Sequence record: PZ445498.1
Origin: a phage
Direction: 5' to 3' (one strand)
DNA length: 64,000 nucleotides
Below the pieces are notes generated by a model. The model saw nothing but the letters and a program-made list of their open reading frames with translations, was not told the origin of the DNA and did no database searches. Shown one piece after another: positions 14,233 to 45,574 of this stretch. The translations under genes were made by a program, and so were the position numbers. Each line of letters begins with the position of its first letter. Within the stretch, counting starts at the first letter, position 1.

Positions 14233-14371
14233 CAGTAAAAGGAACTGGAACCTTCAATTCACCTTTACCCCACATAACAGATAGGAACAGAGAATAAATG
14301 GTAATCATACCGATTAGGTTGACAAACCATACTAGACCTTTCCAGATACCCTTAAAAATCTTCTTCACCAT
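14186..14371 (-). CDS. hypothetical small membrane protein
   Basis: Start at ATG 14371 with AGGAGGG RBS; hydrophobic segment LVWFVNLIGMITIYSLFL. Confidence 0.4.
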   Translation of the reverse strand: MVKKIFKGIWKGLVWFVNLIGMITIYSLFLSVMWGKGELKVPVPFTDEVKVWTWDATGGNK

Positions 14372-18345: not shown

Positions 18346-19098
18346 ATGGGAAAAGCACGTCAAAAAAGAGAGAACCGCAATGGTTCAAGAAAGCGTGGCA
18401 ACAAGTATGAGAGTAACGTAATTCAAGCAGATTTCTCTGGTGATTACGCCAATCCAGTTGCTAAATCCCTAGTTGGTAAAAACCGTGAGCAAAAATCATA
18501 TATCAATATGATCAAGAACAACACAGTGACTGTGGGTATTGGTGAACCAGGTACTGGTAAAACCTTTATTCCGTCCGTTCTTGCAGCTCAGGAACTCGTA
18601 GACATTCACTCAGATATTGAGCAAGTGATCCTCGTGCGTCCGAACGAACCTCTAGGTAAATCTCTTGGTATGCTCCCAGGTGATCTGGCAGAAAAGCTAG
18701 AGCCTTGGTTGGAACCAATAGCCGATGGCATGAAATGGTCAATCGGTGATCACGCCTACAAAGGATATGTCGAACGTCAGAAAATTAAATTCCTGGCTAT
18801 CGAACATGCCCGTGGCCGAACTTTCAACAACTCCTATGTAATTGTCGATGAAGCTCAGAATATCTCCGTTGAAGCAATGATCTGTCTCTTGACTCGTGTA
18901 GGACAAGATTGTCGTTTAATTATCTGTGGGGATATAGCTCAGAAAGACATCAAGGGTGATTCAGGTCTAGCACTTCTTATGGAAGTCTATGAGAAGTACG
19001 AAAACTCTCCTTTCTCTATGATCGAACTGATCGACAACGTTCGCTCACCAGAGTCTAAAGCATTCTACGATATCTTTAAGGATATGGGGAAGGTGTAA
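18346..19098 (+). CDS. phoH: PhoH-like ATPase
   Basis: Walker A GEPGTGKT and Walker B VIVDEAQN; ATG 18346 with AGGAG RBS. Confidence 0.85.
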   Translation: MGKARQKRENRNGSRKRGNKYESNVIQADFSGDYANPVAKSLVGKNREQKSYINMIKNNTVTVGIGEPGTGKTFIPSVLAAQELVDIHSDIEQVILVRPNEPLGKSLGMLPGDLAEKLEPWLEPIADGMKWSIGDHAYKGYVERQKIKFLAIEHARGRTFNNSYVIVDEAQNISVEAMICLLTRVGQDCRLIICGDIAQKDIKGDSGLALLMEVYEKYENSPFSMIELIDNVRSPESKAFYDIFKDMGKV

Positions 19099-29016: not shown

Positions 29017-29199
29017 ATGCCAGTATCTAAAAACGTCCGTAAAAATGGTAAAGTAGCAAAACGTAACCTGGGTCTGCGTCGTATGGCTGAGCGTCAGTCC
29101 GGCATCCAGAAAATCTTTAATGTGCTGAATCGCGCCAACCCGAATATTGATAACAGTTCTGATACTGTTCTGCGCACTCTGCTGGCAATCGGTCTGTAA
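29017..29199 (+). CDS. hypothetical small basic protein
   Basis: 60 aa ORF after promoter 28948-28976. Confidence 0.45.
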   Translation: MPVSKNVRKNGKVAKRNLGLRRMAERQSGIQKIFNVLNRANPNIDNSSDTVLRTLLAIGL

Positions 29200-29251
29200 T
29201 AGACTGTTTTTTAAAACAAATTCAAATCTCAAACTTCATATAAGGAAGCAA

Positions 29252-29893
29252 ATGATGACTACTCGTATCTCTAAAACTCGTGCTCTGGCAACTATCAAGT
29301 CTCTGGAATCTAAAATCCGTAAAGCTACTGAACAACAGCTTTTGATTGCTGTTGGTGAAGGTAAAGACAAGAATCAAGTTGTCGTTGGTGCTGCAATCGA
29401 AGTAGATGCTCTGTCTACTCGTATTAAAACTGATTTCCAGTCTCTGCTGGATATGATGACCCAGCGTGATCAGCTGAAAGCAGCGCTGATCAAGAGCAAT
29501 GCTGAAACTGTTGTAGAGATCGGTTCCCGCTCTATGACTGTTGCGGAAGCAATCGAAGCTAAGCGTTCTATGGAACTCAAAGCTCAGTTGCTGGCTAACA
29601 TGCGTAAGCAGTTCCATGCTGCTACTGTTAAGTTTAACACTCAGAAGGCTCAGTTTGATGCCAAGTATGAGCGTTTGCAGGATACCATGGCTACCCGCGA
29701 CAAGAAGACTTCCGAGGATGAAGTTAAGATGCAGCTTAACCTGCTGGAACTCAAGAACACTCCATTCCTGATCGATCCGCTGGAGCTGGAAAAGCTGATC
29801 AAGCAACACGACGAAGAATACCAGGACTTTGCAACCAACGTTGACTTTGTTCTGTCTGAGTCCAACGCCTCTACTTTTATCGAAGTAGAGTAA
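29252..29893 (+). CDS. hypothetical coiled-coil protein
   Basis: Start ATG 29252 after TAAGGAAG RBS; highly expressed-type codon usage. Confidence 0.55.
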   Translation: MMTTRISKTRALATIKSLESKIRKATEQQLLIAVGEGKDKNQVVVGAAIEVDALSTRIKTDFQSLLDMMTQRDQLKAALIKSNAETVVEIGSRSMTVAEAIEAKRSMELKAQLLANMRKQFHAATVKFNTQKAQFDAKYERLQDTMATRDKKTSEDEVKMQLNLLELKNTPFLIDPLELEKLIKQHDEEYQDFATNVDFVLSESNASTFIEVE

Positions 29894-30273
29894 TAATTTA
29901 AAAGACTAGTAAATCGGTAGACGAAAGCCCAAGCATCTTACCTCGCAGCAGCGGTTGAAATACGAGGTTAAATAAGACCGCTGACCATACTATAAAGTAT
30001 AATCTATTGGAGATTATGTTTATTACACCAGCCTCTTAAGCTGAACTGTAAAAACGGTCGTTGGTAGTACCAACACAACTTCAAAGATCAACGCTCAAGT
30101 ATGAAAGCTGAAAAGTTAAAAGCACTCAAACTTCTAACCTTCTAAAGCTAAAAGATGCAAAGTATTCGTTGATGATTCAAACCCTAGATCAAAGGTACAT
30201 GGCTCATAAGATATGGCCTGTGGCGCCTCTAGGCTGTTTATCGGTTTACTAGTCTCTCAATTTAAAAATGTAT

Positions 30274-30302
30274 TTGCTAATTAGTTTAGTTTTCTATATA
30301 AT
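30274..30302 (+). promoter_or_regulatory. early promoter
   Basis: TTGCTA-17-TATAAT plus TAAATTGATGAGACGAGG leader. Confidence 0.7.
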
Positions 30303-30332
30303 ATATTTTTAAATTGATGAGACGAGGCTATT

Positions 30333-30650
30333 ATGATTTTTCATATTCTAATTGATGATGTTCGTGACCTACATGGGATGGATATTATCATTCGAACCCC
30401 CGAAGCCGCTATTGAGTTTCTGAATACAACCGATACCACCGGACATTTCGTTTATATGGATAACGATCTGGCTGTAGATGGTATGGAAGGTTATCAAATT
30501 CTTCGTTTACTCCTAAAATTTGGTCAGAGACCCAAGAAAGTGGTACTAGTAACCTCGAACCCAGTAGCTAAAGAGACCATGCGTAATGATCTCTTAGACG
30601 AAGGGTATCAAGAAAGCCCTAATCGTATTGAGTACGATTGGCCGGAGTAA
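30333..30650 (+). CDS. hypothetical protein
   Basis: 105 aa ORF after promoter 30274-30302. Confidence 0.5.
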   Translation: MIFHILIDDVRDLHGMDIIIRTPEAAIEFLNTTDTTGHFVYMDNDLAVDGMEGYQILRLLLKFGQRPKKVVLVTSNPVAKETMRNDLLDEGYQESPNRIEYDWPE

Positions 30651-30655
30651 ATAAA

Positions 30656-31105
30656 ATGAAGGCAGCTTTGCTTTTAATAGCTGCCCTAACCTATAGCTTC
30701 AATAGTCATGCGACCTACGACTCAAAGCAGATTGATTGCATTGCAAAAAATATCTACTTCGAAGCACGAGGTGAGGGCACTAAAGGAATGATCGCAGTTG
30801 CACAGGTTACTAAAAACCGTGTTAACTCTGGTACTTTTCCTGATTCTTACTGTAAAGTAGTATATCAGTCTAACCAGTTCTCTTGGGTGGCCAAGAGACC
30901 AAAAGTTGATAAAACCGATGAGGCTTGGCAAGTTGCTAAGAATTTAGCTAGAGTGATATACTACGTTGATTTACCACAAGATCCAACACATGGAGCGTTA
31001 TACTTCCATAGTGGTAAAGATAAACCGTACTGGACAAAGAAGTTTAAGAAAACAACGAAGATTCAAGGCCATACGTTTTACAAGCCTGTGGTTAAGAAAA
31101 CTTAA
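30656..31105 (+). CDS. secreted cell-wall hydrolase-like protein (SleB/Hydrolase_2-like)
   Basis: Signal peptide MKAALLLIAALTYSFNSHA; motif FEARGE...GMIAVAQVTKNR...QFSW typical of SleB-type hydrolases. Confidence 0.6.
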   Translation: MKAALLLIAALTYSFNSHATYDSKQIDCIAKNIYFEARGEGTKGMIAVAQVTKNRVNSGTFPDSYCKVVYQSNQFSWVAKRPKVDKTDEAWQVAKNLARVIYYVDLPQDPTHGALYFHSGKDKPYWTKKFKKTTKIQGHTFYKPVVKKT

Positions 31106-31114
31106 AAAATTCGA

Positions 31115-31143
31115 TTGCTTAAAGCCTTAAATTTCTGTATAAT
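31115..31143 (+). promoter_or_regulatory. early promoter
   Basis: TTGCTT-17-TATAAT plus TATAAATTGATGAGAGGAAAG leader. Confidence 0.75.
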
Positions 31144-31175
31144 AACTGTATAAATTGATGAGAGGAAAGCGAACA

Positions 31176-31346
31176 ATGAAAACCTTAGTAATTATTGGTG
31201 TTAACACTCACGGTATTCGTACTACGAAAACAGTTAAAACTACTAACGTTGCTGAAATTACTACAAATCCTAAGAAGTTTGATTTCGCCAAAGTCTCAGC
31301 AGTTATGACAGAACAATCTTTTAACCAAGCACTGGGAATTAAATAA
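31176..31346 (+). CDS. hypothetical small protein
   Basis: 56 aa from ATG 31176 after GAGAGGA RBS. Confidence 0.4.
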   Translation: MKTLVIIGVNTHGIRTTKTVKTTNVAEITTNPKKFDFAKVSAVMTEQSFNQALGIK

Positions 31347-31789
31347 TGGAAGAGAATATTCTAGATGTTTTGCGTAGGGCTTTGCAGGAATCCAAGTTTA
31401 ATGGTTCTGATAAAGAAGTAGCTAAAAGCTACCAGACCATAATCGGAGATCTTCAGCGTGTTGATAAAGACTTCATTACTTCTGAACAGTTTGTATCTTA
31501 TCTAAAAGCTCAACTGAAAAGCATTAATCAGACGAAAGCTAAACTTCACGGTCAAGACCTTGATAATTATAGCTTGCAGTCTGCTCAGTATGAATATATA
31601 CTGAACAAATGGTTACAGCAGTATCTGCCGCCTCAGTTATCTGATTCTGAGATTCGCAAATACTTTGCAGAATTAGTTAAGTTGAATCCTGGGATTACAA
31701 AAGGTATGCTGATGAAAGCGATTAAGGAAGAGTTTCCTGGTCGTTACGACGGTGGCATTGCTGCTCAGGTTGCTGGCGAATTTAATTAA
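31346..31789 (+). CDS. hypothetical protein
   Basis: 147 aa ORF. Confidence 0.5.
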   Translation: MEENILDVLRRALQESKFNGSDKEVAKSYQTIIGDLQRVDKDFITSEQFVSYLKAQLKSINQTKAKLHGQDLDNYSLQSAQYEYILNKWLQQYLPPQLSDSEIRKYFAELVKLNPGITKGMLMKAIKEEFPGRYDGGIAAQVAGEFN

Positions 31790-31797
31790 AAATTGAT

Positions 31798-31826
31798 TTG
31801 CTAAACGCCTCAAAATTCTGTATAAT
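31798..31826 (+). promoter_or_regulatory. early promoter with no ORF downstream
   Basis: TTGCTA-17-TATAAT plus TCATAAATTAGAGAACAG leader, but no RBS/ATG; drives the ORF-free 1 kb segment. Confidence 0.7.
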
Positions 31827-31832
31827 AGATTC

Positions 31833-32854
31833 ATAAATTAGAGAACAGCGAGCCGATTACGCTGAGTGAGTTTAGTGATTCCTACTAGGATAGCTATTCC
31901 ACTGAATAGAGTCGGTGAGTTTAGAATGATCACCTGTTAGAGTTCCGAGTCCAGTCCGGTATATCCGGCCAAGTGACTAGAGTAACGAATATAGGTTCGA
32001 GACTTCTTGTAAAACTCGGGAGCTGTCCCGAAACCTCGTAAACTCTTCTCTAATTTATACAAAACGATGGTTCTCAACATGAGCTAGGCACAGTGTGAAA
32101 TACGGTGCGTGTCCCAGAGGTAGAAGACTGAAGGTTGGGCTTGAGAAAACCATGTAACTTTCAACGCTGACCCGTCTAGGATGCAAGTCAAGACGTATGT
32201 ATACCACAATGCGGCGATTGTCCATCGAATAGTGGGGTGTCGAACCGACTTATGTGATAACACTGCCAGATGCTCACAGGCTGACATTGAGCTTCGCTGC
32301 TCCTTCTGGAAAGAATCGGATAACTCGGGCTTATACCGGATAAGCATTCGCTGCTGGAGTACATACTATGACGGTTCAGGAGGTACGCCGCCTGATCAGT
32401 ATTAGGTTAGAATCGAAACAGCTAAACCACGAAAGGACTGGGATGCTTGCTGAGCTACCCCTACCTGATACATGCCTCAGCTAACTTCGCATCGAAAATC
32501 GGAGGTGCGATTTAACCAGACCGCGTAACTATGAGAGTGGGAAATGGTAAACTGTATAGCTTGACTCTAACTTAGTTAGGTGGCTACAGAGCCTTAATGG
32601 GACAGTCTAGATACTTAGTGAACCGCGGATAACGCTAAGAATACTGTGAAAATACTATGGGAGTCATGACCCGGATGTTGCCCGATCGCTATAGTGGCGA
32701 ATAACCACGAAGTCACCTTGACTTAAACTGGAAGATATTGTTCGACGGAAGGGCTGAAGAGCTTAATCTGAGGGGGCTGACCCTACCTACCGCCGGGTAT
32801 CTTTAAGAGTTCTTACGAGAGTTCTTAAACATACCTAAACATTAAGGAATACTA
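31833..32854 (+). ncRNA. candidate large non-coding RNA (promoter-driven ORF-free segment)
   Basis: Consensus early promoter at 31798-31826 with no RBS or ORF for ~1 kb; stops in all frames; G+C higher than flanks. Confidence 0.3.
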
Positions 32855-33364
32855 ATGAATCTAGGAACTACTTGTATATTTGATCACAGAGAAATGTGTT
32901 GCCCACATATCCTCTACGTAGTTCACTTTGCAGAGCGTCTTACGCTGGATGAAGCTCGTGAGAAAATGAGTGGAATTACTGGATATGACTTCCGTGAAGG
33001 TGAATACTTTAGCGTTGCTCTTGATTACATTGACAATACCCGTCTTTATCATCTAGTGCAGCTAGGGGAAGAAACTGATGAAGTGAAAATGGCGAAAGAT
33101 ACTTTACGTCGTTATCGTCCTCAGATTCTAGAACGTACACTTCGTGGTGAGTTCAGTGACCCATTCTTTTTGAAGTGTTATGATGCAGACGCTAATGAGT
33201 ACTTGGGGCGACAAAGGTTTTACAAAGAAATCAAAGAGTTTGTGGGTGAAAAATACGAAGCACTACTCGTTGATTCTAGAGCACGACGTGCAGCTAAAAA
33301 TGCTGAGAAATCAGCTAAAGCAGCACTAGAAAGTCAAACCAAACTGAACGAAATCGTTAAGTGA
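32855..33364 (+). CDS. hypothetical protein
   Basis: 169 aa ORF with AAGGAAT RBS. Confidence 0.5.
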   Translation: MNLGTTCIFDHREMCCPHILYVVHFAERLTLDEAREKMSGITGYDFREGEYFSVALDYIDNTRLYHLVQLGEETDEVKMAKDTLRRYRPQILERTLRGEFSDPFFLKCYDADANEYLGRQRFYKEIKEFVGEKYEALLVDSRARRAAKNAEKSAKAALESQTKLNEIVK

Positions 33365-33372
33365 TCTAATTT

Positions 33373-33447
33373 CGGGGTGTAGTCTAAGGGATAGGCAGGA
33401 GTCTTCTAAATTCCTTTATGCAGGTTCGAATCCTGTCACCTCGGCCA
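33373..33447 (+). tRNA. tRNA-Arg (anticodon TCT)
   Basis: Acceptor CGGGGTG/CACCTCG, D stem GTCT/AGGC, anticodon arm GGAGT-CTTCTAA-ATTCC, T arm GCAGG-TTCGAAT-CCTGT, GCCA 3' end. Confidence 0.8.
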
Positions 33448-33480
33448 ACTTTAATAACTGTAACTAAACAAAGGAAATAT

Positions 33481-34425
33481 ATGTTTACTAAAAACACTAA
33501 AGAACTAACTTCTGAGCAAAAAGTAATTCGTACTATTAAACGTTGGGGTGTTGGTGCTGCTGTTGGTCTTGGTGCTCTTATTCTGGCTCTCAATTCCTAT
33601 ACAGTTGTTCAGGATGGTACTGTTAAGACCCAAACCTTCCTGGGTAAAGTTAGCCCTAATCCTGTATTGCCAGGCTTCCATATTGTTAACCCATTTGCTT
33701 CTTTTGATACTTTTAGTACGAAAGATATTTCCATGAAACTGGATAAACTTCAGGTGCCTAGCCAGGATAAGTTTAAGTCTACTGTTGACATTACCGTTAT
33801 GTTGCAGTTTGATGGTGCTAAAGCTCCTATGAACCGTGTTAACGCAGGTACTCAGGATCAAGCTCTGAACAAGTACGTTGAAGAGAAGATGCTGTCTACG
33901 ATTCGTGAGTTTGGTAAGTCTGTACCAAAAGCACAAGATCTGTTCGACGCTAAGATTCAGGCTCAACTGCAAACCGCTATTCAGCAAGAAGTAGAAGAGT
34001 ACGCGCGTCCTTATGGCTACACCGTTAAGCAAGTATTCCTTCAGGATATTACTCTGCCACCGGTAATCATGGAACAGGTACAGAACACTAAAGTTCGTGA
34101 AGAACAAGTTAACGCTGCAAAAGCTGAACTAGCTCGTGTTGAACAAGAAGCACAGCAGAAAGTTAAGCAAGCTGAAGCTGATCGTTCTGCTCGTGAAAAT
34201 ATGGCAGTAGCTAACGAACGTGACGCAGATGCTAAACTGTACGCAGCTAAGAAAGAAGCTGAAGCTAACGCCGCTCTGCAACGTACCATTACTCCTGAAA
34301 TGATTCGTTGGAAGCAGCTGGAAGTTGAAATGCTTCGTGCTGAAAAATACCAAGGTGGTGTACCGCAGACTGTTGTTGGTACTGGCTACGATGGTCAAAT
34401 GATCATGGATATGCGTAACAAGTAA
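33481..34425 (+). CDS. SPFH/band-7 (prohibitin/HflK-like) membrane protein
   Basis: N-terminal TM anchor then PHB-like domain and long coiled-coil; start ATG 33481 (track ATG 33418 lies inside the tRNA). Confidence 0.7.
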   Translation: MFTKNTKELTSEQKVIRTIKRWGVGAAVGLGALILALNSYTVVQDGTVKTQTFLGKVSPNPVLPGFHIVNPFASFDTFSTKDISMKLDKLQVPSQDKFKSTVDITVMLQFDGAKAPMNRVNAGTQDQALNKYVEEKMLSTIREFGKSVPKAQDLFDAKIQAQLQTAIQQEVEEYARPYGYTVKQVFLQDITLPPVIMEQVQNTKVREEQVNAAKAELARVEQEAQQKVKQAEADRSARENMAVANERDADAKLYAAKKEAEANAALQRTITPEMIRWKQLEVEMLRAEKYQGGVPQTVVGTGYDGQMIMDMRNK

Positions 34426-34448
34426 TAGTTACACGTAATCTTCGAACC

Positions 34449-34485
34449 AAGCCCGCGTTCCCTCCGAGAGCGCGGGCTTTTCTGT
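34449..34485 (+). terminator. rho-independent terminator after SPFH gene
   Basis: Hairpin AAGCCCGCG...CGCGGGCTT followed by TTTCTG. Confidence 0.65.
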
Positions 34486-34629
34486 ATTTAAGGCAAAAGA
34501 AAAGCCCATAAGTTATTCAACTAAGGTCTTTAGTATTTAATTCTTTAGAATCGCATACTATTGTTGCTGCAACAACGTGCTACCATTAAATGCCCTGAGA
34601 TTTTTCCACTAAAAAGTTTAAAAATTCGT

Positions 34630-34658
34630 TTGCTTGAATGCTAAATTCTCTGTATAAT
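34630..34658 (+). promoter_or_regulatory. early promoter for nadR-pnuC
   Basis: TTGCTT-17-TATAAT plus TTATAAATTTGAGAGAGGAATC leader. Confidence 0.75.
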
Positions 34659-34688
34659 ATATTTATAAATTTGAGAGAGGAATCAAAC

Positions 34689-35744
34689 ATGATTAAGACT
34701 GGTCTAGTAATTGGTAAGTTCGCACCCTTAACGCGTGGCCATATTAACCTAATAAATACAGCAGCAACTATGTGTGAACGAGTTATTATTGTAGTTAGTC
34801 ATGATAATCGTTGGCTGGATAAGCAGAACACACGTGATCAGGAAGTATTACAGTTAAAGAATCGTCTTCGTTGGTTAGAACAAACTTACGCGGATATTGA
34901 GCACGTTTCGGTAGAGTATATTATTGAAGATGATATTCCTGAATATCCGAATGGTTGGCCGGAATATGCTAGAATCCTTAATGAAAATTACGGACATTTA
35001 CCTGAGATCACCATTTTCTCTAGCGAACTAGACTATGATGCAGAATATAAGAAATATCTGCCGAAGTTTGGTCATTATATTGTAGATTCTGATCGGACTC
35101 GTGTTCCAATCTCAGCTACAATGATTCGTAATGATCTTATGAAGTATTGGGAGTTTCTTCCTAGCGTAGTTCGTAAAGATTACGTGCGTAGGGTTGTAAT
35201 CATTGGGACTGAAAGCTCAGGAAAGACTACTTTAACAAAATACCTTGCGAAGCTATACAACACTTCGTGGGTAGAAGAATATGGTCGAACGTATTGTGAA
35301 GTTGATCTAGTTGGTAACGAAAATCTGCTTACCAGCGAAGATTATAGTAAAATTGCGTTCAGACACAAAGAGCTAGAGTTTGAGGCAGAACGTACTGCAA
35401 ATAAGATCATGTTTGTGGATACAAATGCTTTTATTACTGAGTTCTACCACAGACTTTATGAACATCGTAAGAACCCTGTGGTTACAGCAATTGCAAAAGA
35501 AGAACATTACGATTTAGTAATTGTTCTAGCGCCCACTGTCAAGTGGGTAGATGATGGTTTACGTATTAACTCCGATCGTTCAATTACTTCTGAACTGTTC
35601 GAGCAGATGAAGAAAGAATTTCCAAATCAGTTCCCTGAAGGGCGTACTGTGTACATCGACTCCCCGGACTACAAAGTTCGTATGGACGAAGCAGTAAACG
35701 CAGTAGACTGGCTGATTCATCACTTTAACGTTGGAGAGTTTTAA
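34689..35744 (+). CDS. nadR: NadR-like bifunctional NMN adenylyltransferase / ribosylnicotinamide kinase
   Basis: Nucleotidyltransferase motif GKFAPLTRGH, ISATMIR motif, C-terminal P-loop GTESSGKTT. Confidence 0.8.
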   Translation: MIKTGLVIGKFAPLTRGHINLINTAATMCERVIIVVSHDNRWLDKQNTRDQEVLQLKNRLRWLEQTYADIEHVSVEYIIEDDIPEYPNGWPEYARILNENYGHLPEITIFSSELDYDAEYKKYLPKFGHYIVDSDRTRVPISATMIRNDLMKYWEFLPSVVRKDYVRRVVIIGTESSGKTTLTKYLAKLYNTSWVEEYGRTYCEVDLVGNENLLTSEDYSKIAFRHKELEFEAERTANKIMFVDTNAFITEFYHRLYEHRKNPVVTAIAKEEHYDLVIVLAPTVKWVDDGLRINSDRSITSELFEQMKKEFPNQFPEGRTVYIDSPDYKVRMDEAVNAVDWLIHHFNVGEF

Positions 35745-35745
35745 T

Positions 35746-36423
35746 ATGACTAACTATCTCGTAAATGACTTTAAAAACTGGAAACCTCTGGAATATCTGT
35801 GGCTGTTCATAGCGGTTGCCTTCATTAGTTTAGCTAACTATAATGGTACACCTCTAGATTGGGCTACTGCGATAACCAACGTAGTTTGTGTTATTTTGGT
35901 TGCTAAAGGACGTGTTTCTAACTATATTTGGGGCTTAGTTGGTGTTCTTACCTATGGTATTACAGCTTTAAACGCAGATCTTTATGGTAACGCTGCACTA
36001 AACCTGCTATACTACGTTCCTATGCAGTTTTATGGAATGTACTTATGGCATAAAAATAAGCCAAGTAATCTGCCAGATGTTCCAACTAAGATTCTGACTA
36101 AAGTCCAAGCTCTGCTGACTCTAGGGATTCTAGCAGTAGCCACGTTAGGGTATGGTAGTTTCTTAGCTACTACGGCTGATCCATTCCCAATGTTGGATGC
36201 ATTTACTGCGGTAGGTAGTGTGATCGCTATGTGGCTTATGGTTAAGCAGTATGCCGAGCAGTGGCTGATCTGGATTGCTATTAACATTGGTACTGTGTAC
36301 ATTTGGCTTGTAACTACTCAATCTACAGGTGCATCTTATGCAATCCTAGCAATGTGGCTAGTATTCTTAGGTAACTCTATTATGGGAGCCTATAAAGGAT
36401 ACTTTGTACGCGTTAACAAATAA
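35746..36423 (+). CDS. pnuC: PnuC-like nicotinamide riboside transporter
   Basis: Multi-pass membrane protein with PnuC-like ...LYYVPMQFYGMYLW... region; translationally coupled to nadR. Confidence 0.75.
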   Translation: MTNYLVNDFKNWKPLEYLWLFIAVAFISLANYNGTPLDWATAITNVVCVILVAKGRVSNYIWGLVGVLTYGITALNADLYGNAALNLLYYVPMQFYGMYLWHKNKPSNLPDVPTKILTKVQALLTLGILAVATLGYGSFLATTADPFPMLDAFTAVGSVIAMWLMVKQYAEQWLIWIAINIGTVYIWLVTTQSTGASYAILAMWLVFLGNSIMGAYKGYFVRVNK

Positions 36424-36431
36424 AGTAGTTA

Positions 36432-36458
36432 TAGCCCTCTAAGCGAGGGCTATTATAC
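36432..36458 (+). terminator. rho-independent terminator after pnuC
   Basis: Hairpin AGCCCTC-TAAGC-GAGGGCT followed by ATTATA; T-run weak. Confidence 0.55.
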
Positions 36459-36470
36459 AGAAATTTTCAC

Positions 36471-36499
36471 TTGCTTAATATAGAAAATTTCTATATAAT
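36471..36499 (+). promoter_or_regulatory. early promoter
   Basis: TTGCTT-17-TATAAT plus TTATAAATTCGAGAGAGGAATC leader. Confidence 0.75.
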
Positions 36500-36529
36500 A
36501 TATTTATAAATTCGAGAGAGGAATCAAAC

Positions 36530-36826
36530 ATGAAACGCATTGTACTTGCACTGACTCTAGTATCTACTTCTGTATTTGCTGCTCCGCAACAGGAACTTTG
36601 TCAAGTTCAGGTTTGTAATAAGTTAGAACGATTTACTTTGGATATTTGGTCACACATTAAAGATAATATGGGTGAACAGTGTTTTGATATTGTTCTGCCA
36701 AAAGAGCAGGCTGTTCCTGGTGCTATTCTTAGCTCAGAGTCACGTTGGTGGCAGGGTTCTTCTATCAATCCAACTAAGAAGTCAGTGACACGTATCAAAC
36801 AAGTATATCAGTGCAAGGTTCAGTAA
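36530..36826 (+). CDS. hypothetical secreted protein
   Basis: Signal peptide MKRIVLALTLVSTSVFA; 98 aa. Confidence 0.5.
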   Translation: MKRIVLALTLVSTSVFAAPQQELCQVQVCNKLERFTLDIWSHIKDNMGEQCFDIVLPKEQAVPGAILSSESRWWQGSSINPTKKSVTRIKQVYQCKVQ

Positions 36827-36834
36827 AATTTCAC

Positions 36835-36863
36835 TTGCTTAATGTCGAAATTTTCTGTATAAT
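36835..36863 (+). promoter_or_regulatory. early promoter for HNH gene and first tRNAs
   Basis: TTGCTT-17-TATAAT plus TCATAAATTCGGAAGATTAGG leader. Confidence 0.7.
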
Positions 36864-36896
36864 ATATTCATAAATTCGGAAGATTAGGAACTATTT

Positions 36897-37406
36897 ATGC
36901 TAGACTATGAGTCTATACTTTATAGATTCCGTTTAGAAGATGGTGTGCTGGTGTGGAATCCGCTCTCCGGAAACTCCAGAGAGGAGAAGATATTTAATAC
37001 TAAGTTTGCCAATAAACCTGCGGGATCTTTGCACAAAAGCTCTGGGTATATCAGAGTTAACGTTGATCACCAAGATTACTTAGCTCATATCATAGTATTT
37101 ATACTATATTATGGGTATAGGCCGGAAATGATTGATCATAAAGACTGCAATAAGTTAAACATACATCCTTTAAATTTAAGAGCAGCGGATAGTACCACTA
37201 ATACTCATAATGCTAGTAAATCTTCTAGGAATACTAGCGGATTTAAGGGAGTATCCTACCACAAAGCATCTGGTCAGTGGCAGGGTAGAATAATGTTTAA
37301 AGGTAAGTCATACTCCGCAGGGCTGCACAGTACTCCTGAAGCAGCAAATGAAGCTCTAATTCAACTGAGAGAGAAACTTCATGGGGAATACGCCCGAAAT
37401 AATTAA
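36897..37406 (+). CDS. HNH homing endonuclease with AP2-like domain
   Basis: Paralog of 21899-22417 (IDHKDCNKLN, GEYARNN tail); directly upstream of the tRNA cluster. Confidence 0.7.
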   Translation: MLDYESILYRFRLEDGVLVWNPLSGNSREEKIFNTKFANKPAGSLHKSSGYIRVNVDHQDYLAHIIVFILYYGYRPEMIDHKDCNKLNIHPLNLRAADSTTNTHNASKSSRNTSGFKGVSYHKASGQWQGRIMFKGKSYSAGLHSTPEAANEALIQLREKLHGEYARNN

Positions 37407-37495
37407 GGAAGAATAGCATAACGGTATTGCAGCAGATTGCTAATCTGTCGGTTTGAAACATAGCCTTGTGGGTTCGAATCCCACTTCTTCCTCCA
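37407..37495 (+). tRNA. tRNA-Ser (anticodon GCT)
   Basis: Acceptor GGAAGAA/TTCTTCC, anticodon arm GCAGA-TTGCTAA-TCTGT, long variable arm, T arm GGGTTCGAATCCC, CCA. Confidence 0.8.
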
Positions 37496-37500
37496 AATTT

Positions 37501-37578
37501 GGTTCTCAAGCTCATTTGGTATGAGCCGTCGCCTCATAAGCGAAAGGTAGGTAGGTTCGAATCCTCCGGGAGCCACCA
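37501..37578 (+). tRNA. tRNA with CAT anticodon (Met or Ile-lysidine type)
   Basis: Acceptor GGTTCTC/GGGAGCC, D stem GCTC/GAGC, anticodon loop CTCATAA, T loop TTCGAAT, CCA; one T-stem mismatch. Confidence 0.6.
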
Positions 37579-37595
37579 ATTAACTAGGAGACTAT

Positions 37596-37781
37596 ATGTC
37601 TAAGTTTCAAGAGCTTAAACAAGAACTAGAAGAGTGCATGTGTACTCACTGCCAAGGAACAGGTACTATTAATGATGCTGAACCTGGCGATATGCGTTTT
37701 GAAGAGTGGGAATGCGCAGCATGTAATGGTTCTGGTATTAATCCAGAATTTGGAATTTCTCTAGATATTGATCGAGGTTAA
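37596..37781 (+). CDS. hypothetical small Zn-ribbon protein
   Basis: 61 aa with CTHCQGTG and CAACNGSG Cys pairs. Confidence 0.5.
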   Translation: MSKFQELKQELEECMCTHCQGTGTINDAEPGDMRFEEWECAACNGSGINPEFGISLDIDRG

Positions 37782-37782
37782 C

Positions 37783-38115
37783 ATGGATATTTACACTACT
37801 CCAGCAGTAAATCTGATTGGCTCTTGCCTTGTGCATTTCCGCTTCTTCCAAACGGATGATAGCAAAGAGGAATATACTTATCCTCTGATGGATTTTCAGA
37901 TTGAGGATTTCTTTCGTGAAGTTCGTAATATTTCTGGAAACTTCTTCTATGGTATGGATAAGGAAGATTTTGACATTGAGTTCCCTATAATCTCTCGTTA
38001 TTTCCTAGAACAGTCTGACGCTCATTTTAGTAAGATTGAGCATATGGAAGTAGCATGGGCAATTCAGTTCGAGATTACTGGTTTTGCTCGATATATTCAG
38101 GGTTACGAACTCTAA
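37783..38115 (+). CDS. hypothetical protein
   Basis: Start ATG 37783 overlapping upstream stop. Confidence 0.45.
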   Translation: MDIYTTPAVNLIGSCLVHFRFFQTDDSKEEYTYPLMDFQIEDFFREVRNISGNFFYGMDKEDFDIEFPIISRYFLEQSDAHFSKIEHMEVAWAIQFEITGFARYIQGYEL

Positions 38116-38124
38116 AGATTACAT

Positions 38125-38201
38125 GGGGGTGTAATCGAATTGGCATAGGTACTGGACTTAAAATTCAGGTTTTGTGGGTTCGAATCCCACCACCCCTACC
38201 A
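38125..38201 (+). tRNA. tRNA, class-I length, anticodon TAA (Leu-type anticodon)
   Basis: Acceptor GGGGGTG/CACCCCT, anticodon arm CTGGA-CTTAAAA-TTCAG, T arm GTGGG-TTCGAAT-CCCAC, A73, CCA; imperfect D stem. Confidence 0.5.
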
Positions 38202-38216
38202 AATTAAGGAAATAAA

Positions 38217-38339
38217 ATGAAAGCTATTAAGAAAGCACTACGTAAATTTATGTACTGTCGTTTTCATAGCATCAAGACTTCAACTAATGGTACGACTTAT
38301 GATCGCTATGATCCTAAGTTTGGCTTACATTCTAAATAA
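38217..38339 (+). CDS. hypothetical small basic peptide
   Basis: 40 aa ORF with AAGGAAATAAA RBS right after the tRNA; speculative. Confidence 0.3.
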   Translation: MKAIKKALRKFMYCRFHSIKTSTNGTTYDRYDPKFGLHSK

Positions 38340-38352
38340 CTGGAGAAAACAA

Positions 38353-38559
38353 ATGGCTAATCCTGAAATTACGGCACAACGCTTTATGCTGAAAGGAATT
38401 ATTGCTGAAGCAGGCATGACAGAAGAAGTTACAGATTTTCAAAAGCAATTCCTCAATATTCTCACTCAAGCTAAAGAGCTAGGAGAGAAGGAACATGGCG
38501 CGGCTATTATGGCAATCACGTTGGTTGGGCTTGATCTGGCTGAAGAATCAGGAGTTTAA
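38353..38559 (+). CDS. hypothetical small protein
   Basis: ATG 38353 after GGAG RBS; track ORF 38287 is an in-frame upstream extension. Confidence 0.45.
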   Translation: MANPEITAQRFMLKGIIAEAGMTEEVTDFQKQFLNILTQAKELGEKEHGAAIMAITLVGLDLAEESGV

Positions 38560-38589
38560 CTCCTCCAAGCAGAAATTTTAAAAATGTAC

Positions 38590-38619
38590 TTGCTTTTTAC
38601 TTAAGATTTCTGTTATAAT
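38590..38619 (+). promoter_or_regulatory. early promoter
   Basis: TTGCTT-18-TATAAT plus TATAAATTGATGAAGGAG leader. Confidence 0.65.
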
Positions 38620-38649
38620 AGTTATATAAATTGATGAAGGAGTTAACGA

Positions 38650-41081: not shown

Positions 41082-41295
41082 AAACATCAGAGCAGCGTGA
41101 TGTACTGCAAAGACCCAAAGTCCGGGGTGGACTTCTTGATTCAAAGGAGCAGGCATTAATTATCATTCTAGCGTGGTGGAGAGGGGACACCAGCTTGCCG
41201 AGGGTAGAAGCTCGTTCGATTCGAGTGAAAGAATGGTTCTCGTAAATCCGCACAAGTGATAGTAGGTTCAAGTCCTACCTAGATTGACTCATTAT

Positions 41296-41369: not shown

Positions 41370-41624
41370 AATCTTTGTAGGTCGCGTCACTTATAATGGG
41401 ACTACAGGGTAAACAAGGCGATGAGTTTCCGGCCGGTTCTAGTCGCTGAAAATCCTCCCGACCAGGTAGGTGTAGGTAAACGAAAGTTTACTTATTGAGT
41501 AGGTTCCGATAGATCGGCGAGTCTATTCTGGCATTTAAGAGAAGTCTCGCAAACTTCTTTGTCAGCCGTGGGGCTTGAACCCTCCAGGTGGCCTACGCAA
41601 TAAGTAAATTTATTAAAAATTCAT

Positions 41625-42848: not shown

Positions 42849-42874
42849 ATTAACTCAAAATAAGGAATTGCAAA

Positions 42875-43228
42875 TGCAATTATCAAGCAAGGTTCAAGGC
42901 TATTTCGGTCATGTAACAATGGAGTTCGCTATCTCTTAAAGGTTGGGACTTCGAACAAGATCTAGCTGAATTCTACAAAGATATTGATCTGAACGTACCA
43001 TACATAGGACTCTCCACTGGTCAAGAGATTACAGAAGCCGATGTATTCAAGGCAAGTCAAGGTGAGGTAACACCTAGTTTTGCCGAGTTCTGGTTAGGTA
43101 TCACACTGAAAGAAGATGCACCGGATGGTGGTGTGGTTATGCAGAGTATGCACTCTGGAAGCTCTGATTACCTTTTCGTTAGCGACGTTAAGGAACTACA
43201 AGAAATCGCTAAAAATGTACTTGCTTGA
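42875..43228 (+). pseudogene. ORF interrupted by in-frame TAA (21 codons, stop at 42938-42940, then ~95 more codons)
   Basis: ATG 42875 with AAGGA RBS; in-frame TAA; downstream frame stays open to TGA 43226-43228 with no ATG near its start. Confidence 0.35.
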
Positions 43229-43239
43229 TGCTTAATTTC
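43211..43239 (+). promoter_or_regulatory. early promoter ahead of ORF-free leader and tRNA-Ala/Leu
   Basis: TTGCTT-17-TATAAT plus TATAAATTGATGTGAAAATAG leader. Confidence 0.7.
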
Positions 43240-43604
43240 TTGTTATAATATTTATATAAATTGATGTGAAAATAGCTGCCTAGATATCAGGTGTATGACG
43301 TCTACACTAGCAGAGCTACCGAAAAAGAGATCCTCAGGATAAACGCCGTAGCAAAATTAGTCTGATATCCATCAATTTAGTTCACTAAGGTATTAGCTCG
43401 ACCTAGGACTGGCTGCCAAAAAGCACAGTTGCAATTAGACCCCCTAATGGCGGGGGATGCTTTGCAATAAGTTCTAGATTAGTCCACTAGATTCAGCGGC
43501 TACTGAATAGTGTATTGGGTTTGCGAGATGACGCGGTTCCTTCCGCTCGAAGCGAAGGTGCTGTAGTTACGCCGAGCTAATAGCCTTAGTAAACTAAAGA
43601 ATTT

Positions 43605-43679
43605 GGGCGGTTAGTTTATCTGGGAAAATACCTGACTTGCACTCAGGAGTGAGGAGTTCGACTCTCCTACTGTCCACCA
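43605..43679 (+). tRNA. tRNA-Ala (anticodon TGC)
   Basis: Acceptor GGGCGGT/ACTGTCC with G3-U70 wobble, anticodon arm CCTGA-CTTGCAC-TCAGG, T arm AGGAG-TTCGACT-CTCCT, CCA. Confidence 0.85.
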
Positions 43680-43684
43680 AATTC

Positions 43685-43769
43685 GGGGCTATGCTGGAAC
43701 TGGTAGACAATACGGCCTTAGATTCCGTAGCTTAAATGCGTGGGAGTTCGAGTCTCCCTAGCCCCACCA
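43685..43769 (+). tRNA. tRNA-Leu (anticodon TAG)
   Basis: Acceptor GGGGCTA/TAGCCCC, anticodon loop CTTAGAT, long variable arm, T arm GGGAG-TTCGAGT-CTCCC, A73, CCA. Confidence 0.7.
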
Positions 43770-44462: not shown

Positions 44463-44557
44463 GGTAGGTCAATCCAATGGCTGGCGCTGGACTCCGACTT
44501 GAAATCGGTTGATCGTAGTGATACGGTGTAAGGGTTCGATCCCCTTACCTACCTCCA
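44463..44557 (+). tRNA. tRNA-Ser (anticodon TGA)
   Basis: Acceptor GGTAGGT/ACCTACC, anticodon arm CCGA-CTTGAAA-TCGG, long variable arm, T arm AAGGG-TTCGATC-CCCTT, CCA. Confidence 0.7.
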
Positions 44558-44938
44558 AATCTTGAAGTATGCCGGAATCGGTAGACGGGGCTTCCTAAAG
44601 GGCGTAAGGGGAACATCCACTCCTCATAAGATACCCGAAAATGAGGCTGAGATAAATGGTCTATCTCATGAAGGTTCAAGTCCTTCTGCTTCTTGATACA
44701 TTAATGGCTCAAAGTGTAACGGTGCTATTTGATGTTCTTAGTAAGACTTTCCCGACATGCGTTCGGGAGTAAGCTGCTAAGGCTAGAGTAGAAGAGTTTC
44801 GGAGAGCCGCCACAATTGAGTATTATTAGAGAGCATTCGCAAGAAAGAATCAGGAGAAAAACCTGTGCGCAGAATGACTAACTTTGGTACCTTAGACGGC
44901 CAAATGGAGGACTGATCATCCCCTAATAGTATTCAATT

Positions 44939-45490: not shown

Positions 45491-45498
45491 AACAATAA

Positions 45499-45574
45499 GC
45501 GGTTAAGCACACGGGTTGTGCCGCAGGCCTTCCAAGCCCCGCTGAGTAGGGTTCGATTCCCTCTAGCCGCTCCA
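45499..45574 (+). tRNA. tRNA-Gly (anticodon TCC)
   Basis: Acceptor GCGGTTA/TAGCCGC, anticodon loop CTTCCAA on a weak stem, T loop TTCGATT, U73, CCA. Confidence 0.6.

What the first reader, a model, noticed from the sequence alone, without database searches (positions are those of the whole stretch)
43240..43604. 365 nt ORF-free leader between an early promoter and tRNA-Ala
The promoter at 43211-43239 is followed not by a gene but by ~365 nt without an ORF before tRNA-Ala. It contains a perfect hairpin CCCCC-TAATGG-CGGGGG (~43435-43452). This is a candidate precursor-derived small RNA or processing element.
Basis: seen in the sequence. Interest (0 to 1): 0.5.

Follow-up and report, generated by a model that had tools for sequence, protein, structure and literature searches.

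The report
T5 "RNA2H" stable RNA gene
The ORF-free stretch between an early promoter and tRNA-Ala is this T5-like phage's copy of "RNA2H", a strongly folded, conserved small RNA already annotated in phage T5 as a stable RNA of unknown function, so it is real but not a new kind of element.

Summary
The window is the tRNA region of a T5-like phage (Demerecviridae). A T5-type early promoter (-35 43221-43226, -10 43244-43249) is followed by about 350 transcribed nt with no ORF over 24 aa, up to tRNA-Ala (43605).

The same slot in T5 (NC_005859) and Salmonella phage 5 (AJ604531) is annotated "rna2H, stable RNA with unknown functions" (172 nt). The window's orthologue is 43391-43585 (195 nt).

It folds as a four-way junction closed by a 24-bp stem, P1 (43376-43400 / 43573-43598). 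Folding z-score is -5.6. Across three phage lineages 35 of 60 pairs change on both sides. Wobble pairs and the covariance-model score (219 vs 38 bits) point to the + strand.

A 94-nt domain after the start site is also lineage-specific and unannotated.

The T5 annotated ends lie staggered across P1 like an RNase III cut. The excised lower half of P1 still covaries. I infer RNase III excision, then RNase P at tRNA-Ala.

A covariance model finds homologues in Klebsiella Sugarlandvirus and Pectobacterium phage My1. Rfam has no match. Function is unknown, and viable T5 mutants lack the region.

The parts
43221..43249 (+). Early sigma-70 promoter, orthologue of T5 P13b: -35 TTGCTT 43221-43226, 17-nt spacer, -10 TATAAT 43244-43249. 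Inferred start site about 43256.
   Evidence: Sequence. Aligns to the annotated T5 P13b and to the S114 'P13b-like' promoter. About 20 similar promoter copies in the window. The same promoter type precedes the homologues in Spivey and My1.
43257..43379 (+). P0 leader domain. Closing stem 43257-43266 / 43370-43379. Inner helices 43283-43290 / 43362-43369, 43291-43295 / 43303-43307, 43315-43319 / 43348-43352 and 43330-43333 / 43337-43340. It holds a roughly 94-nt insertion relative to T5, where P0 is a small GAAA-loop hairpin.
   Evidence: Perfect 10-nt inverted repeat. Consensus fold of 6 alleles. A U-A / U-G / C-G series occurs at one pair, with one C-A exception. The insertion is present in 85 phage records at 95% identity or more, always at this locus. 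It is unannotated in AJ604531. Folding alone is not significant (z = -1.0).
43376..43400 (+). P1 5' strand. The long closing stem has 24 bp, one C-A mismatch and one bulged G. The inferred cleavage is between G43390 and U43391.
   Evidence: 10 of 21 P1 pairs change on both sides across three phage lineages.
43573..43598 (+). P1 3' strand, with the conserved bulged G43583. The inferred cleavage follows C43585. The strand ends 6 nt before tRNA-Ala.
43391..43585 (+). Orthologue of mature T5 RNA2H: 195 nt here, 172 nt in T5. The difference is the 23-nt P2b extension.
   Evidence: BLAST of T5 RNA2H against the window covers query 1-172 and maps to 43391-43585. Alignments. Covariance model R1 scores 218.9 bits on + and 37.6 on -.
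43403..43477 (+). P2 arm. 8-bp stem 43403-43410 / 43470-43477 with an invariant G-U. It holds the nearly invariant motif GGCUGCCAAAAAGCAC (43411-43426) and hairpin P2b.
   Evidence: A version of the motif is retained in Spivey, KKP_3711 and My1.
43428..43468 (+). P2b variable hairpin. 7-bp stem 43428-43434 / 43462-43468, plus the tip hairpin CCCCC 43440-43444 / GGGGG 43452-43456.
   Evidence: It replaces the short CCC/GGG hairpin of T5, with compensatory changes. The long form is found in 123 records.
43485..43512 (+). P3 arm. CACUA / UAGUG (43485-43489 / 43508-43512) plus UUCAG / CUGAA (43492-43496 / 43503-43507), with loop CGGCUA.
43523..43572 (+). P4 arm, allele 'A'. GCG / CGC 43523-43525 / 43570-43572 and a long bulged hairpin 43529-43547 / 43551-43569. 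Other phages carry a non-alignable allele 'B' that folds the same way.
   Evidence: 7 of 11 pairs change on both sides between alleles. Within allele A there is a C-G to U-G to U-A series and a G-U to A-U change.
43586..43604 (+). 19-nt spacer. It is the 3' half of lower P1 and would become the 5' leader of tRNA-Ala after cleavage.
   Evidence: Same 19-nt gap between the RNA2H 3' end and tRNA-Ala in T5. Sequence.
43605..43769 (+). Co-transcribed tRNA-Ala(UGC) 43605-43679 and tRNA-Leu(UAG) 43685-43769.
   Evidence: ARAGORN and Rfam. No terminator-like site on the + strand between the promoter and the tRNAs.

Best explanation
The leader encodes this phage's RNA2H, a conserved, highly structured non-coding RNA that is co-transcribed with tRNA-Ala and tRNA-Leu from the early promoter P13b.

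The primary transcript starts near 43256. It folds into a 5' domain, P0, and then a four-way junction (P2, P3, P4) closed by a 24-bp stem, P1.

I infer that host RNase III cuts both strands in the middle of P1, between G43390 and U43391 and after C43585. This would release a roughly 195-nt RNA whose ends form a 10-bp stem with a short 3' overhang. It would also leave a 19-nt single-stranded leader on tRNA-Ala, which RNase P then removes.

The excised RNA probably acts in trans through its invariant junction core, most plausibly by binding a protein. It is an accessory rather than an essential function.

Sub-confidences: identity as the RNA2H orthologue about 0.9; + strand RNA structure about 0.9; RNase III as the excising enzyme about 0.5; a trans-acting role of any kind about 0.5. 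The specific function is unknown.
For: Identity
- T5 and phage 5 records annotate rna2H as a 'stable RNA' in the same slot.
- The alignment is end to end.
- Covariance model R1 gives one hit in the window, at 218.9 bits.

Structure
- Folding z-score is -5.55.
- In 44 distinct T5-like sequences, 99.7% of cells are paired, against 31-44% when partners are slid. Covariation is 0.161 against 0.079 in shuffles.
- With the Sugarlandvirus and My1 homologues added, 35 of 60 pairs change on both sides (shuffled mean 14.3, 0 of 500 shuffles as high). Covariation is 0.344 against 0.066 or less when slid.

Strand
- An invariant G-U sits in P2, and one-sided changes are mostly wobble-compatible on +.
- The model scores 219 bits on + and 38 on -.
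- The strand matches the promoter, the tRNAs and the T5 annotation.

Processing
- The T5 annotated ends (5' UAUUAGCUCG..., 3' ...CGAGCUAAUAGCC) fall in the middle of P1 with a 2-bp 3' stagger plus the bulged G.
- P1 keeps 21-22 bp, the bulged G and the GG/CC pairs at the cut site in all three lineages.
- The lower half of P1 is removed from the mature RNA yet still shows compensatory changes (columns 10/275, 11/274 and 13/272). This suggests it is needed in the precursor.

Function in the core
- The P2 and P3 junction sequence is nearly invariant, while the peripheral hairpins P0, P2b and P4 are swapped like modules.

Accessory role
- Viable T5 mutants T5-123 (deletion 29191-32442) and T5Mos (deletion 30661-38625) span the rna2H coordinates, assuming the paper numbers T5 as NC_005859 does (PMC11464382).
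Against: - The basis of the T5 end annotation (experiment or prediction) could not be checked. The original papers are not in the library.
- No RNA-level data exist for this phage.
- The annotated 3' overhang is 3 nt (GCC), not 2, unless the bulged G is discounted.
- The alignment was fitted to the model and leans towards the structure.
- Nothing here shows a trans function. The conserved core could serve folding or processing only.
Confidence: 0.7

Rival explanations
1. It is a purely cis-acting processing or insulating module. The long stem is an RNase III site that detaches the promoter-proximal leader and prepares tRNA-Ala for RNase P. The excised piece is a by-product that happens to be stable and has no function of its own.
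For: P1 ends 6 nt before tRNA-Ala, or 2 nt before tRNA-Leu in My1. The lower half of P1 covaries although it is discarded. The element is always promoter-proximal in a tRNA or ORF transcription unit. It is dispensable in the laboratory.
Against: A processing stem does not need about 170 nt of junction. Yet P2, P3 and the linker motifs (GGCUGCCAAAAAGCAC, AGUGUA) are nearly invariant within T5-like phages and recognisable in Sugarlandvirus and My1. In Eps7-type phages the RNA is followed by an ORF, not a tRNA.
Confidence: 0.25
2. It is a giant tRNA-like molecule matured like a tRNA, by RNase P at the 5' end and trimming at the 3' end, possibly with A added to ...GCC. It would act as a tRNA mimic, for example a decoy for tRNA-targeting host nucleases or tRNA-binding enzymes.
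For: It has cloverleaf-like connectivity. Four helices meet with linkers of 2, 1, 4 and 0 nt, and the closing stem carries a 3' GCC tail. Neighbouring T5 stable RNAs are tRNA-like or end in GCCA or ACCA (RNA1, RNA2, RNAI, RNA3). The P3 loop in Sugarlandvirus is CUGGUAA, which resembles an anticodon loop. T5 tRNAs are known counter-defence factors (PMC11464382; PMC11555353, title and abstract).
Against: ARAGORN and the Rfam tRNA models find nothing here. There is no T-loop motif. An alternative T-arm pairing in P4 is contradicted by 12 sequences carrying A-C. In the precursor the GCC tail is base-paired to the 5' leader, which disfavours RNase P. Only the fragment that also carried the tRNA-Pro/fMet/Lys/Val genes partly rescued the PARIS-sensitive mutant, and tRNA-Lys alone rescued it fully.
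Confidence: 0.15
3. It is a promoter-proximal RNA that modifies RNA polymerase, as HK022 put RNA does (processive antitermination), so that transcription reads through the highly structured tRNA cluster.
For: It always lies directly downstream of a strong early promoter, within 5 nt of the start site in Spivey. It is followed by long arrays of structured tRNA genes.
Against: It is annotated as a discrete stable RNA. It has no similarity to any Rfam antitermination RNA. Other tRNA transcription units in the same window lack it.
Confidence: 0.05
4. It is a DNA-level element (an inverted-repeat mobile element, a replication or nicking site, or a homing-endonuclease target), or an RNA from the minus strand.
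For: It has a 24-bp inverted repeat. The minus strand folds slightly better in silico (z = -6.0). HNH endonuclease genes abound nearby.
Against: Conserved G-U pairs and wobble-type substitutions would be A-C mismatches on the other strand or irrelevant in duplex DNA. The covariance model is strongly asymmetric, at 219 vs 38 bits. There is a single copy per genome at a fixed syntenic site. No minus-strand promoter context was found.
Confidence: 0.03

Closest known systems
Phage T5 RNA2H (gene rna2H, T5s04, NC_005859 31808-31979; also 'RNA 2H' in Salmonella phage 5, AJ604531)
   Same: Orthologous sequence across the full length. Same promoter (P13b), same strand, same neighbours (tRNA-Val upstream, tRNA-Ala and tRNA-Leu downstream), same P1, P2, P3 and P4 fold.
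   Different: It also has a roughly 94-nt expansion of the 5' leader hairpin P0 that T5 lacks and AJ604531 leaves unannotated. Its combination of modules (long P0, long P2b, P4 allele A) was not seen in the roughly 50 loci sampled. The best database identity over the leader is 92%.
Other stable RNAs in phage tRNA clusters: T5 RNAI, RNAIII, RNAIV, RNA1, RNA2, RNA3; T4 species 1 and 2 RNAs (rnaC, rnaD; from my own knowledge)
   Same: Small stable RNAs of unknown function, co-transcribed with and excised from tRNA precursors. Their 5' and 3' ends pair in a terminal stem with a short 3' tail.
   Different: No sequence similarity to any of them. RNA2H lacks the T-arm that makes RNA1 and RNA2 tRNA-like. 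It is the only one whose terminal stem continues about 12 bp beyond the mature ends.
RNase III processing stems of bacterial rRNA operons and T7 early transcripts (established knowledge)
   Same: A long duplex is formed by sequences flanking a structured RNA. A staggered double cut releases the RNA and frees adjacent tRNAs for RNase P.
   Different: The enzyme assignment here is inferred only from geometry and conservation. No cleavage data exist.
Bacterial Y RNAs (YrlA) and large phage-associated structured RNAs near tRNAs (GOLLD, ROOL)
   Same: Structured non-coding RNAs, often phage-borne or next to tRNAs, with a long terminal stem and a multi-helix junction.
   Different: No Rfam match even at E <= 10. 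No tRNA-like T-arm as in YrlA. RNA2H is much smaller than GOLLD or ROOL.

Membership tests
T5 RNA2H stable RNA family | Sequence homology to T5 rna2H over its whole length | tested here: met
   BLAST covers query 1-172 and maps to 43391-43585. Alignments. Covariance model score 218.9 bits.
T5 RNA2H stable RNA family | Synteny and strand: directly downstream of promoter P13b, upstream of tRNA-Ala and tRNA-Leu(UAG), on the tRNA strand | tested here: met
T5 RNA2H stable RNA family | Shared secondary structure (P1 closing stem plus three arms) | tested here: met
T5 RNA2H stable RNA family | Accumulates as a discrete stable RNA in infected cells | not testable with these tools
   Known only from the GenBank annotation of T5 and phage 5. 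There are no RNA data for this phage.
RNase III substrate | Roughly two turns (about 20 bp or more) of near-perfect dsRNA | tested here: met
   P1 has 24 bp with one mismatch and one bulge. It has 21-22 bp in all lineages.
RNase III substrate | Staggered double-strand cut leaving a 2-nt 3' overhang | tested here: inconclusive
   The T5 annotated ends give a 2-bp stagger plus one bulged nt, so the tail is 3 nt, GCC. The experimental basis of those ends is unknown.
tRNA or tRNA-like RNA | Detected by tRNA models; T-loop and D-loop signature | tested here: not met
   No ARAGORN or Rfam tRNA hit in 43240-43604. No GTTCRANYC motif. Only the four-way connectivity resembles a cloverleaf.
Any Rfam 15 family (riboswitch, T-box, 6S, Y RNA, HEARO, GOLLD, ROOL, ribozymes) | Covariance-model match | tested here: not met
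   Zero matches at E <= 10 on the leader alone.
Transcription attenuator or intrinsic terminator leader | G+C hairpin followed by a U-run before the downstream gene | tested here: not met
   No + strand terminator-like site in 43240-43604. The G/C hairpin is followed by AUGCUUUGCAA, not a U-run.
Base-pairing small RNA | A conserved single-stranded seed with complementary targets | tested here: inconclusive
   Complements of the two invariant motifs occur in the window only at chance level. The host genome was not searched.

The most novel reading that the evidence does not exclude
RNA2H is an old Demerecviridae RNA, shared by Markadamsvirinae, Sugarlandvirus and Mccorquodalevirinae. After RNase III excision it would act in trans as a cloverleaf-shaped decoy or sponge. 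It could neutralise a host tRNA-targeting defence nuclease, or it could sequester a host RNA-binding or RNA-processing protein. The swappable peripheral hairpins (P0, P2b, and P4 alleles A and B) would reflect an arms race with such a partner.
Probability: 0.15. Interest if true: 0.7.

Novelty: new member of a known kind. Interest (0 to 1): 0.3.

Why it matters
T5 is a classic model phage, and its tRNA region has recently been shown to hold counter-defence factors: tRNA-Lys against PARIS and tRNA-Tyr against retron Eco7. Its 'stable RNAs' were found around 1980 and remain without a function, a structural model or an Rfam family.

This analysis gives RNA2H several things it lacked:
- a secondary structure supported by covariation;
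- a testable maturation pathway, RNase III followed by RNase P;
- a modular map of a conserved core and variable periphery;
- homologues in two further phage lineages.

That makes a small, old open question directly testable. For the scan itself the result is modest. The finding is a genuine RNA gene, but one already annotated in the reference phage.

Tried and rejected
- **Rfam.** Searches of 32-48 kb at E <= 1 and of the leader alone at E <= 10 found nothing in the leader.
- **tRNA or tmRNA in the leader.** None found.
- **Coding potential.** The largest ORFs are 24 and 21 aa with no ribosome-binding site. A 'hypothetical protein' annotated over the P0 insert in one record is probably spurious.
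- **Paralogues in the window.** Only the promoter is repeated. The covariance model finds a single copy.
- **Homology to other T5 stable RNAs.** None. The idea that '2H' means 'RNA2 homologue' is therefore not supported.
- **Terminator or attenuator reading of the G/C hairpin.** There is no U-run.
- **Minus-strand RNA.** Rejected on the wobble pattern and covariance-model asymmetry, despite a slightly better in-silico fold.
- **Alternative T-arm-like pairing in P4.** Contradicted by sequence variation (analysis).
- **Possible GCAC/GUGU tertiary pairing.** This would link the P2 loop to the P3/P4 linker. It could not be tested because both sides are nearly invariant, and it overlaps the P3 stem.
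- **Base-pairing targets within the window.** Matches are at chance level.
- **Literature.** No open paper describes RNA2H. Glukhov et al. 2018 is not held.
- **More distant Demerecviridae.** Model R2 found nothing in Providencia phage PR1 (20-50 kb) or Vibrio phage pVp-1 (15-60 kb). Default filters were used and only parts of the genomes were searched, so absence is not proven.
- **Spivey promoter match.** The match proved to be an unrelated promoter copy near the ligase genes.

Full report
**Context.** The window carries 26 tRNA genes on the + strand between about 33 and 47 kb. The region around the finding matches several hundred T5-like phage genomes (Demerecviridae: Tequintavirus and Epseptimavirus). 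The window is therefore the early tRNA region of a T5-like phage.

**Checking the observation.** No ORF longer than 24 aa lies on either strand inside 43240-43604. tRNA-Ala(UGC) begins at 43605.

It consists of -35 TTGCTT 43221-43226, a 17-nt spacer and -10 TATAAT 43244-43249. It aligns base for base with the annotated T5 promoter P13b and with the 'P13b-like' promoter of phage S114. The same promoter type recurs about 20 times in the window. The generic scan missed it because TTGCTT matches only 3 of 6 bases of TTGACA. From the spacing of T5 promoters I infer a start site near 43256, which gives about 349 transcribed nt.

This is about 5 nt downstream of the stated position, and it has 5 bp.

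The region is far more structured than chance allows. The core 43375-43603 folds with z = -5.55 and the whole leader with z = -3.5.

**What it is.** In the T5 reference record (NC_005859), the slot between P13b and tRNA-Ala holds a misc_RNA named rna2H (T5s04). It is described as 'RNA2H, stable RNA with unknown functions', is 172 nt long and lies on the tRNA strand. The tRNA-region record of Salmonella phage 5 (AJ604531) annotates the same 'RNA 2H'. T5 RNA2H aligns end to end with window 43391-43585. The finding is therefore the orthologue of a known, annotated stable RNA whose function is uncharacterised.

The window also holds orthologues of other T5 stable RNAs:
- RNA2 at 41164-41288
- RNAIV at 41499-41599
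- RNA1 at 44561-44705
- RNAI at 44706-44812

Rfam 15 has no family matching the leader, even at E <= 10.

**Anatomy.** The parts, with coordinates, are as follows.
- **P0 (43257-43379).** This domain begins one nt after the inferred start site. It is closed by a perfect 10-bp stem, 43257-43266 / 43370-43379. In T5 and My1, P0 is a small hairpin, and in Sugarlandvirus it is absent. Here it carries a roughly 94-nt branched insertion, found in 85 phage records at 95% identity or more and always at this locus. The insertion is unannotated even in AJ604531.
- **P1 (43376-43400 / 43573-43598).** This closing stem has 24 bp, one C-A mismatch and one bulged G (G43583).
- **P2 (43403-43410 / 43470-43477).** This 8-bp stem holds the nearly invariant motif GGCUGCCAAAAAGCAC (43411-43426) and the variable hairpin P2b (43428-43468).
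- **P3 (43485-43512).** This is a two-part hairpin with loop CGGCUA.
- **P4 (43523-43572).** This is a long bulged hairpin.
- **Junction linkers.** The linkers between the four helices are 2, 1, 4 and 0 nt.

P2b, P4 and P0 behave as exchangeable modules. T5 has a short P2b, and the long form occurs in 123 records. P4 exists as two non-alignable alleles, A and B, that fold alike. The modules occur in different combinations in different phages. The window's combination (long P0, long P2b, P4-A) was not seen among the sampled loci. This explains why the best database identity over the leader is only 92%.

**Evidence that this is a functional + strand RNA structure.** In 44 distinct T5-like sequences, 99.7% of pair cells are standard pairs. 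With slid partners the figure is 31-44%. Covariation is 0.161 against 0.079 in shuffles (0 of 500 as high), and 7 of 11 P4 pairs change on both sides.

One-sided substitutions are mostly wobble-compatible on the + strand. Examples are the series C-G to U-G to U-A and the change G-U to A-U in P4, and A-U to G-U changes in P1 and P3. P2 also has an invariant G-U. These would be A-C mismatches on the other strand.

A covariance model built from the alignment (R1) scores 218.9 bits on + and 37.6 bits on -. It finds no second copy in the window.

**Wider distribution.** R1 detected a homologue in Klebsiella phage Spivey (Sugarlandvirus) at 68.4 bits, E = 2e-19. The context is the same: a T5-type promoter, then the RNA, then tRNA-Ala and tRNA-Leu. 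BLAST shows this form in about 81 Klebsiella and Enterobacter phage records.

R1 also hit Pectobacterium phage My1 (Mccorquodalevirinae) at 40 bits, which is close to the score of reverse-strand hits. The locus confirms the homology in four ways:
- a TTGCTT-17-TATAAT promoter;
- a P0 hairpin;
- a 22-bp P1 with the same bulged G and the same GG/CC pairs;
- the motifs GGCUUGCAAAACGCAC and UAGUGUAA, followed by an unannotated tRNA-Leu(UAG)-like sequence.

Across the three lineages, 35 of 60 pairs change on both sides (shuffled mean 14.3, 0 of 500 as high). Covariation is 0.344 against 0.066 or less when slid. In P1, 10 of 21 pairs are compensatory. The caveat is that this alignment was fitted to the model, although P1 aligns without gaps.

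A broader model, R2, found nothing in the tRNA regions of Providencia phage PR1 or Vibrio phage pVp-1.

**How it most likely works.**

*Shown:* the promoter homology, the absence of a terminator before the tRNAs, the conserved fold, and the annotated T5 ends.

*Inferred:* the T5 ends are 5' UAUUAGCUCG... and ...CGAGCUAAUAGCC 3'. They fall in the middle of P1. The 5' end pairs 10 bp into the stem, and the 3' end extends past its partner by the bulged G plus two C residues. Those two C residues pair with the two G residues just upstream of the 5' end. This is the staggered geometry of an RNase III cut in a duplex of about 22 bp.

Two comparative facts support a dsRNA-processing signal. P1 keeps its length, the bulged G and the GG/CC pairs in all three lineages. 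The lower half of P1 is absent from the mature RNA, yet it still shows compensatory substitutions. After such a cut, the 19 nt at 43586-43604 would become a free 5' leader for RNase P at tRNA-Ala.

The junction core is nearly invariant while the periphery is swapped. This suggests the excised RNA has a function of its own, most simply recognition by a protein.

The function is dispensable in the laboratory. Viable T5 mutants T5-123 (deletion 29191-32442) and T5Mos (deletion 30661-38625) span the rna2H coordinates, assuming the paper numbers T5 as NC_005859 does (PMC11464382). In that study, rescue from PARIS was traced to tRNA-Lys alone. Only the fragment that also carried the tRNA-Pro, fMet, Lys and Val genes gave partial rescue.

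**Rivals.**
- **A purely cis-acting processing module.** This is plausible, but it does not explain the conserved 170-nt core or the Eps7-type arrangement, where an ORF follows instead of a tRNA.
- **A tRNA-like molecule matured by RNase P.** It has cloverleaf connectivity and a GCC tail, and its neighbouring T5 RNAs are tRNA-like. However, no tRNA model matches, it has no T-loop, and the tail is paired in the precursor.
- **A put-like antitermination RNA.** The only support is its promoter-proximal position.
- **A DNA-level element or a minus-strand RNA.** The wobble pattern, the covariance-model asymmetry and the single fixed locus argue against this.

**Verdict.** The element is not a new kind of thing. 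It is a new allele of T5 RNA2H, a long-known but functionally unexplained stable RNA.

Four points appear to go beyond what the records say:
- the structure supported by covariation;
- the RNase III-like processing logic;
- the modular variability, including the unannotated P0 insertion;
- the extension of the family to Sugarlandvirus and My1.

Interest is modest, at 0.3.

Noticed in passing
window 42874-43228: The 117-aa ORF conserved upstream of P13b in relatives (S114 orf94, DaisyDussoix bas31_0109) is broken here by a 1-nt insertion (extra T in ATCTCTTAAAGG, about 42934). This leaves 23-aa and 31-aa fragments. It is either a frameshift pseudogene or a sequencing error. Its stop codon overlaps the -35 box of P13b.
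   Followed up: partly
window 41164-41288, 41499-41599, 44561-44705, 44706-44812, 32229-32839: Orthologues of other T5 'stable RNAs of unknown function' are present: RNA2, RNAIV, RNA1, RNAI and fragments of the 719-nt RNAX. No RNAIII match was found by BLAST in 44813-44938, just before tRNA-His.
   Followed up: partly
window 44463-44557: A weak tRNA-Sec-model hit (37.6 bits, below the gathering score) was not called by ARAGORN. Its 3' half matches T5 tRNA-Ser(UGA) at 84%, so it is probably a degenerate tRNA-Ser. A second weak tRNA-like hit lies at 45498-45571 (28.5 bits).
   Followed up: partly
L053 (Providencia phage PR1, KY363465) 18365-18696, minus strand: A 332-nt ORF-free stretch lies between an annotated promoter and tRNA-Lys. 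It folds (z = -3.9) into a roughly 24-bp closing stem around a multibranch domain with a T-arm-like hairpin (GGGUUCGAGUCCC). The RNA2H models do not hit it. It is an analogous 'stem-bounded leader RNA' in another genus.
   Followed up: partly
L052 (Pectobacterium phage My1, JX195166) about 14290-14360, minus strand: Directly after the My1 RNA2H homologue lies an unannotated tRNA-Leu(UAG)-like sequence (GGGGTTATGCTGGAACTGGTAGAC...CTTAGAATCTG...). It overlaps or abuts the annotated ORF My1_054.
   Followed up: no
L025, L016, L026 (Eps7-type phages), just after RNA2H: In Eps7-type genomes RNA2H is followed by an 87-aa ORF, not tRNA-Ala. The ORF's ribosome-binding site (AGAAGGAA) starts inside the end of the P1 3' strand. 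The Eps7 record labels the ORF 'Rho-associated coiled-coil kinase 2', which is surely a mis-annotation.
   Followed up: no
L043 (Salmonella phage S126) 826-1035: A 7-nt tandem duplication (TGAATAG) in the 3' strand of P3 lengthens the RNA to 210 nt. It is the only indel seen in the otherwise invariant P3.
   Followed up: no
window 43445-43451; P4 allele B in L001, L048 and others: The P2b tip loop (UAAUGGC) and the conserved loop of P4 allele B (UGGCUAAU) both resemble the P1 3' strand (GCUAAUAGCC). The P4-B loop could pair with the P1 5' strand (AUUAGCU). This may be an alternative pairing or a trace of duplication. It was not tested.
   Followed up: no
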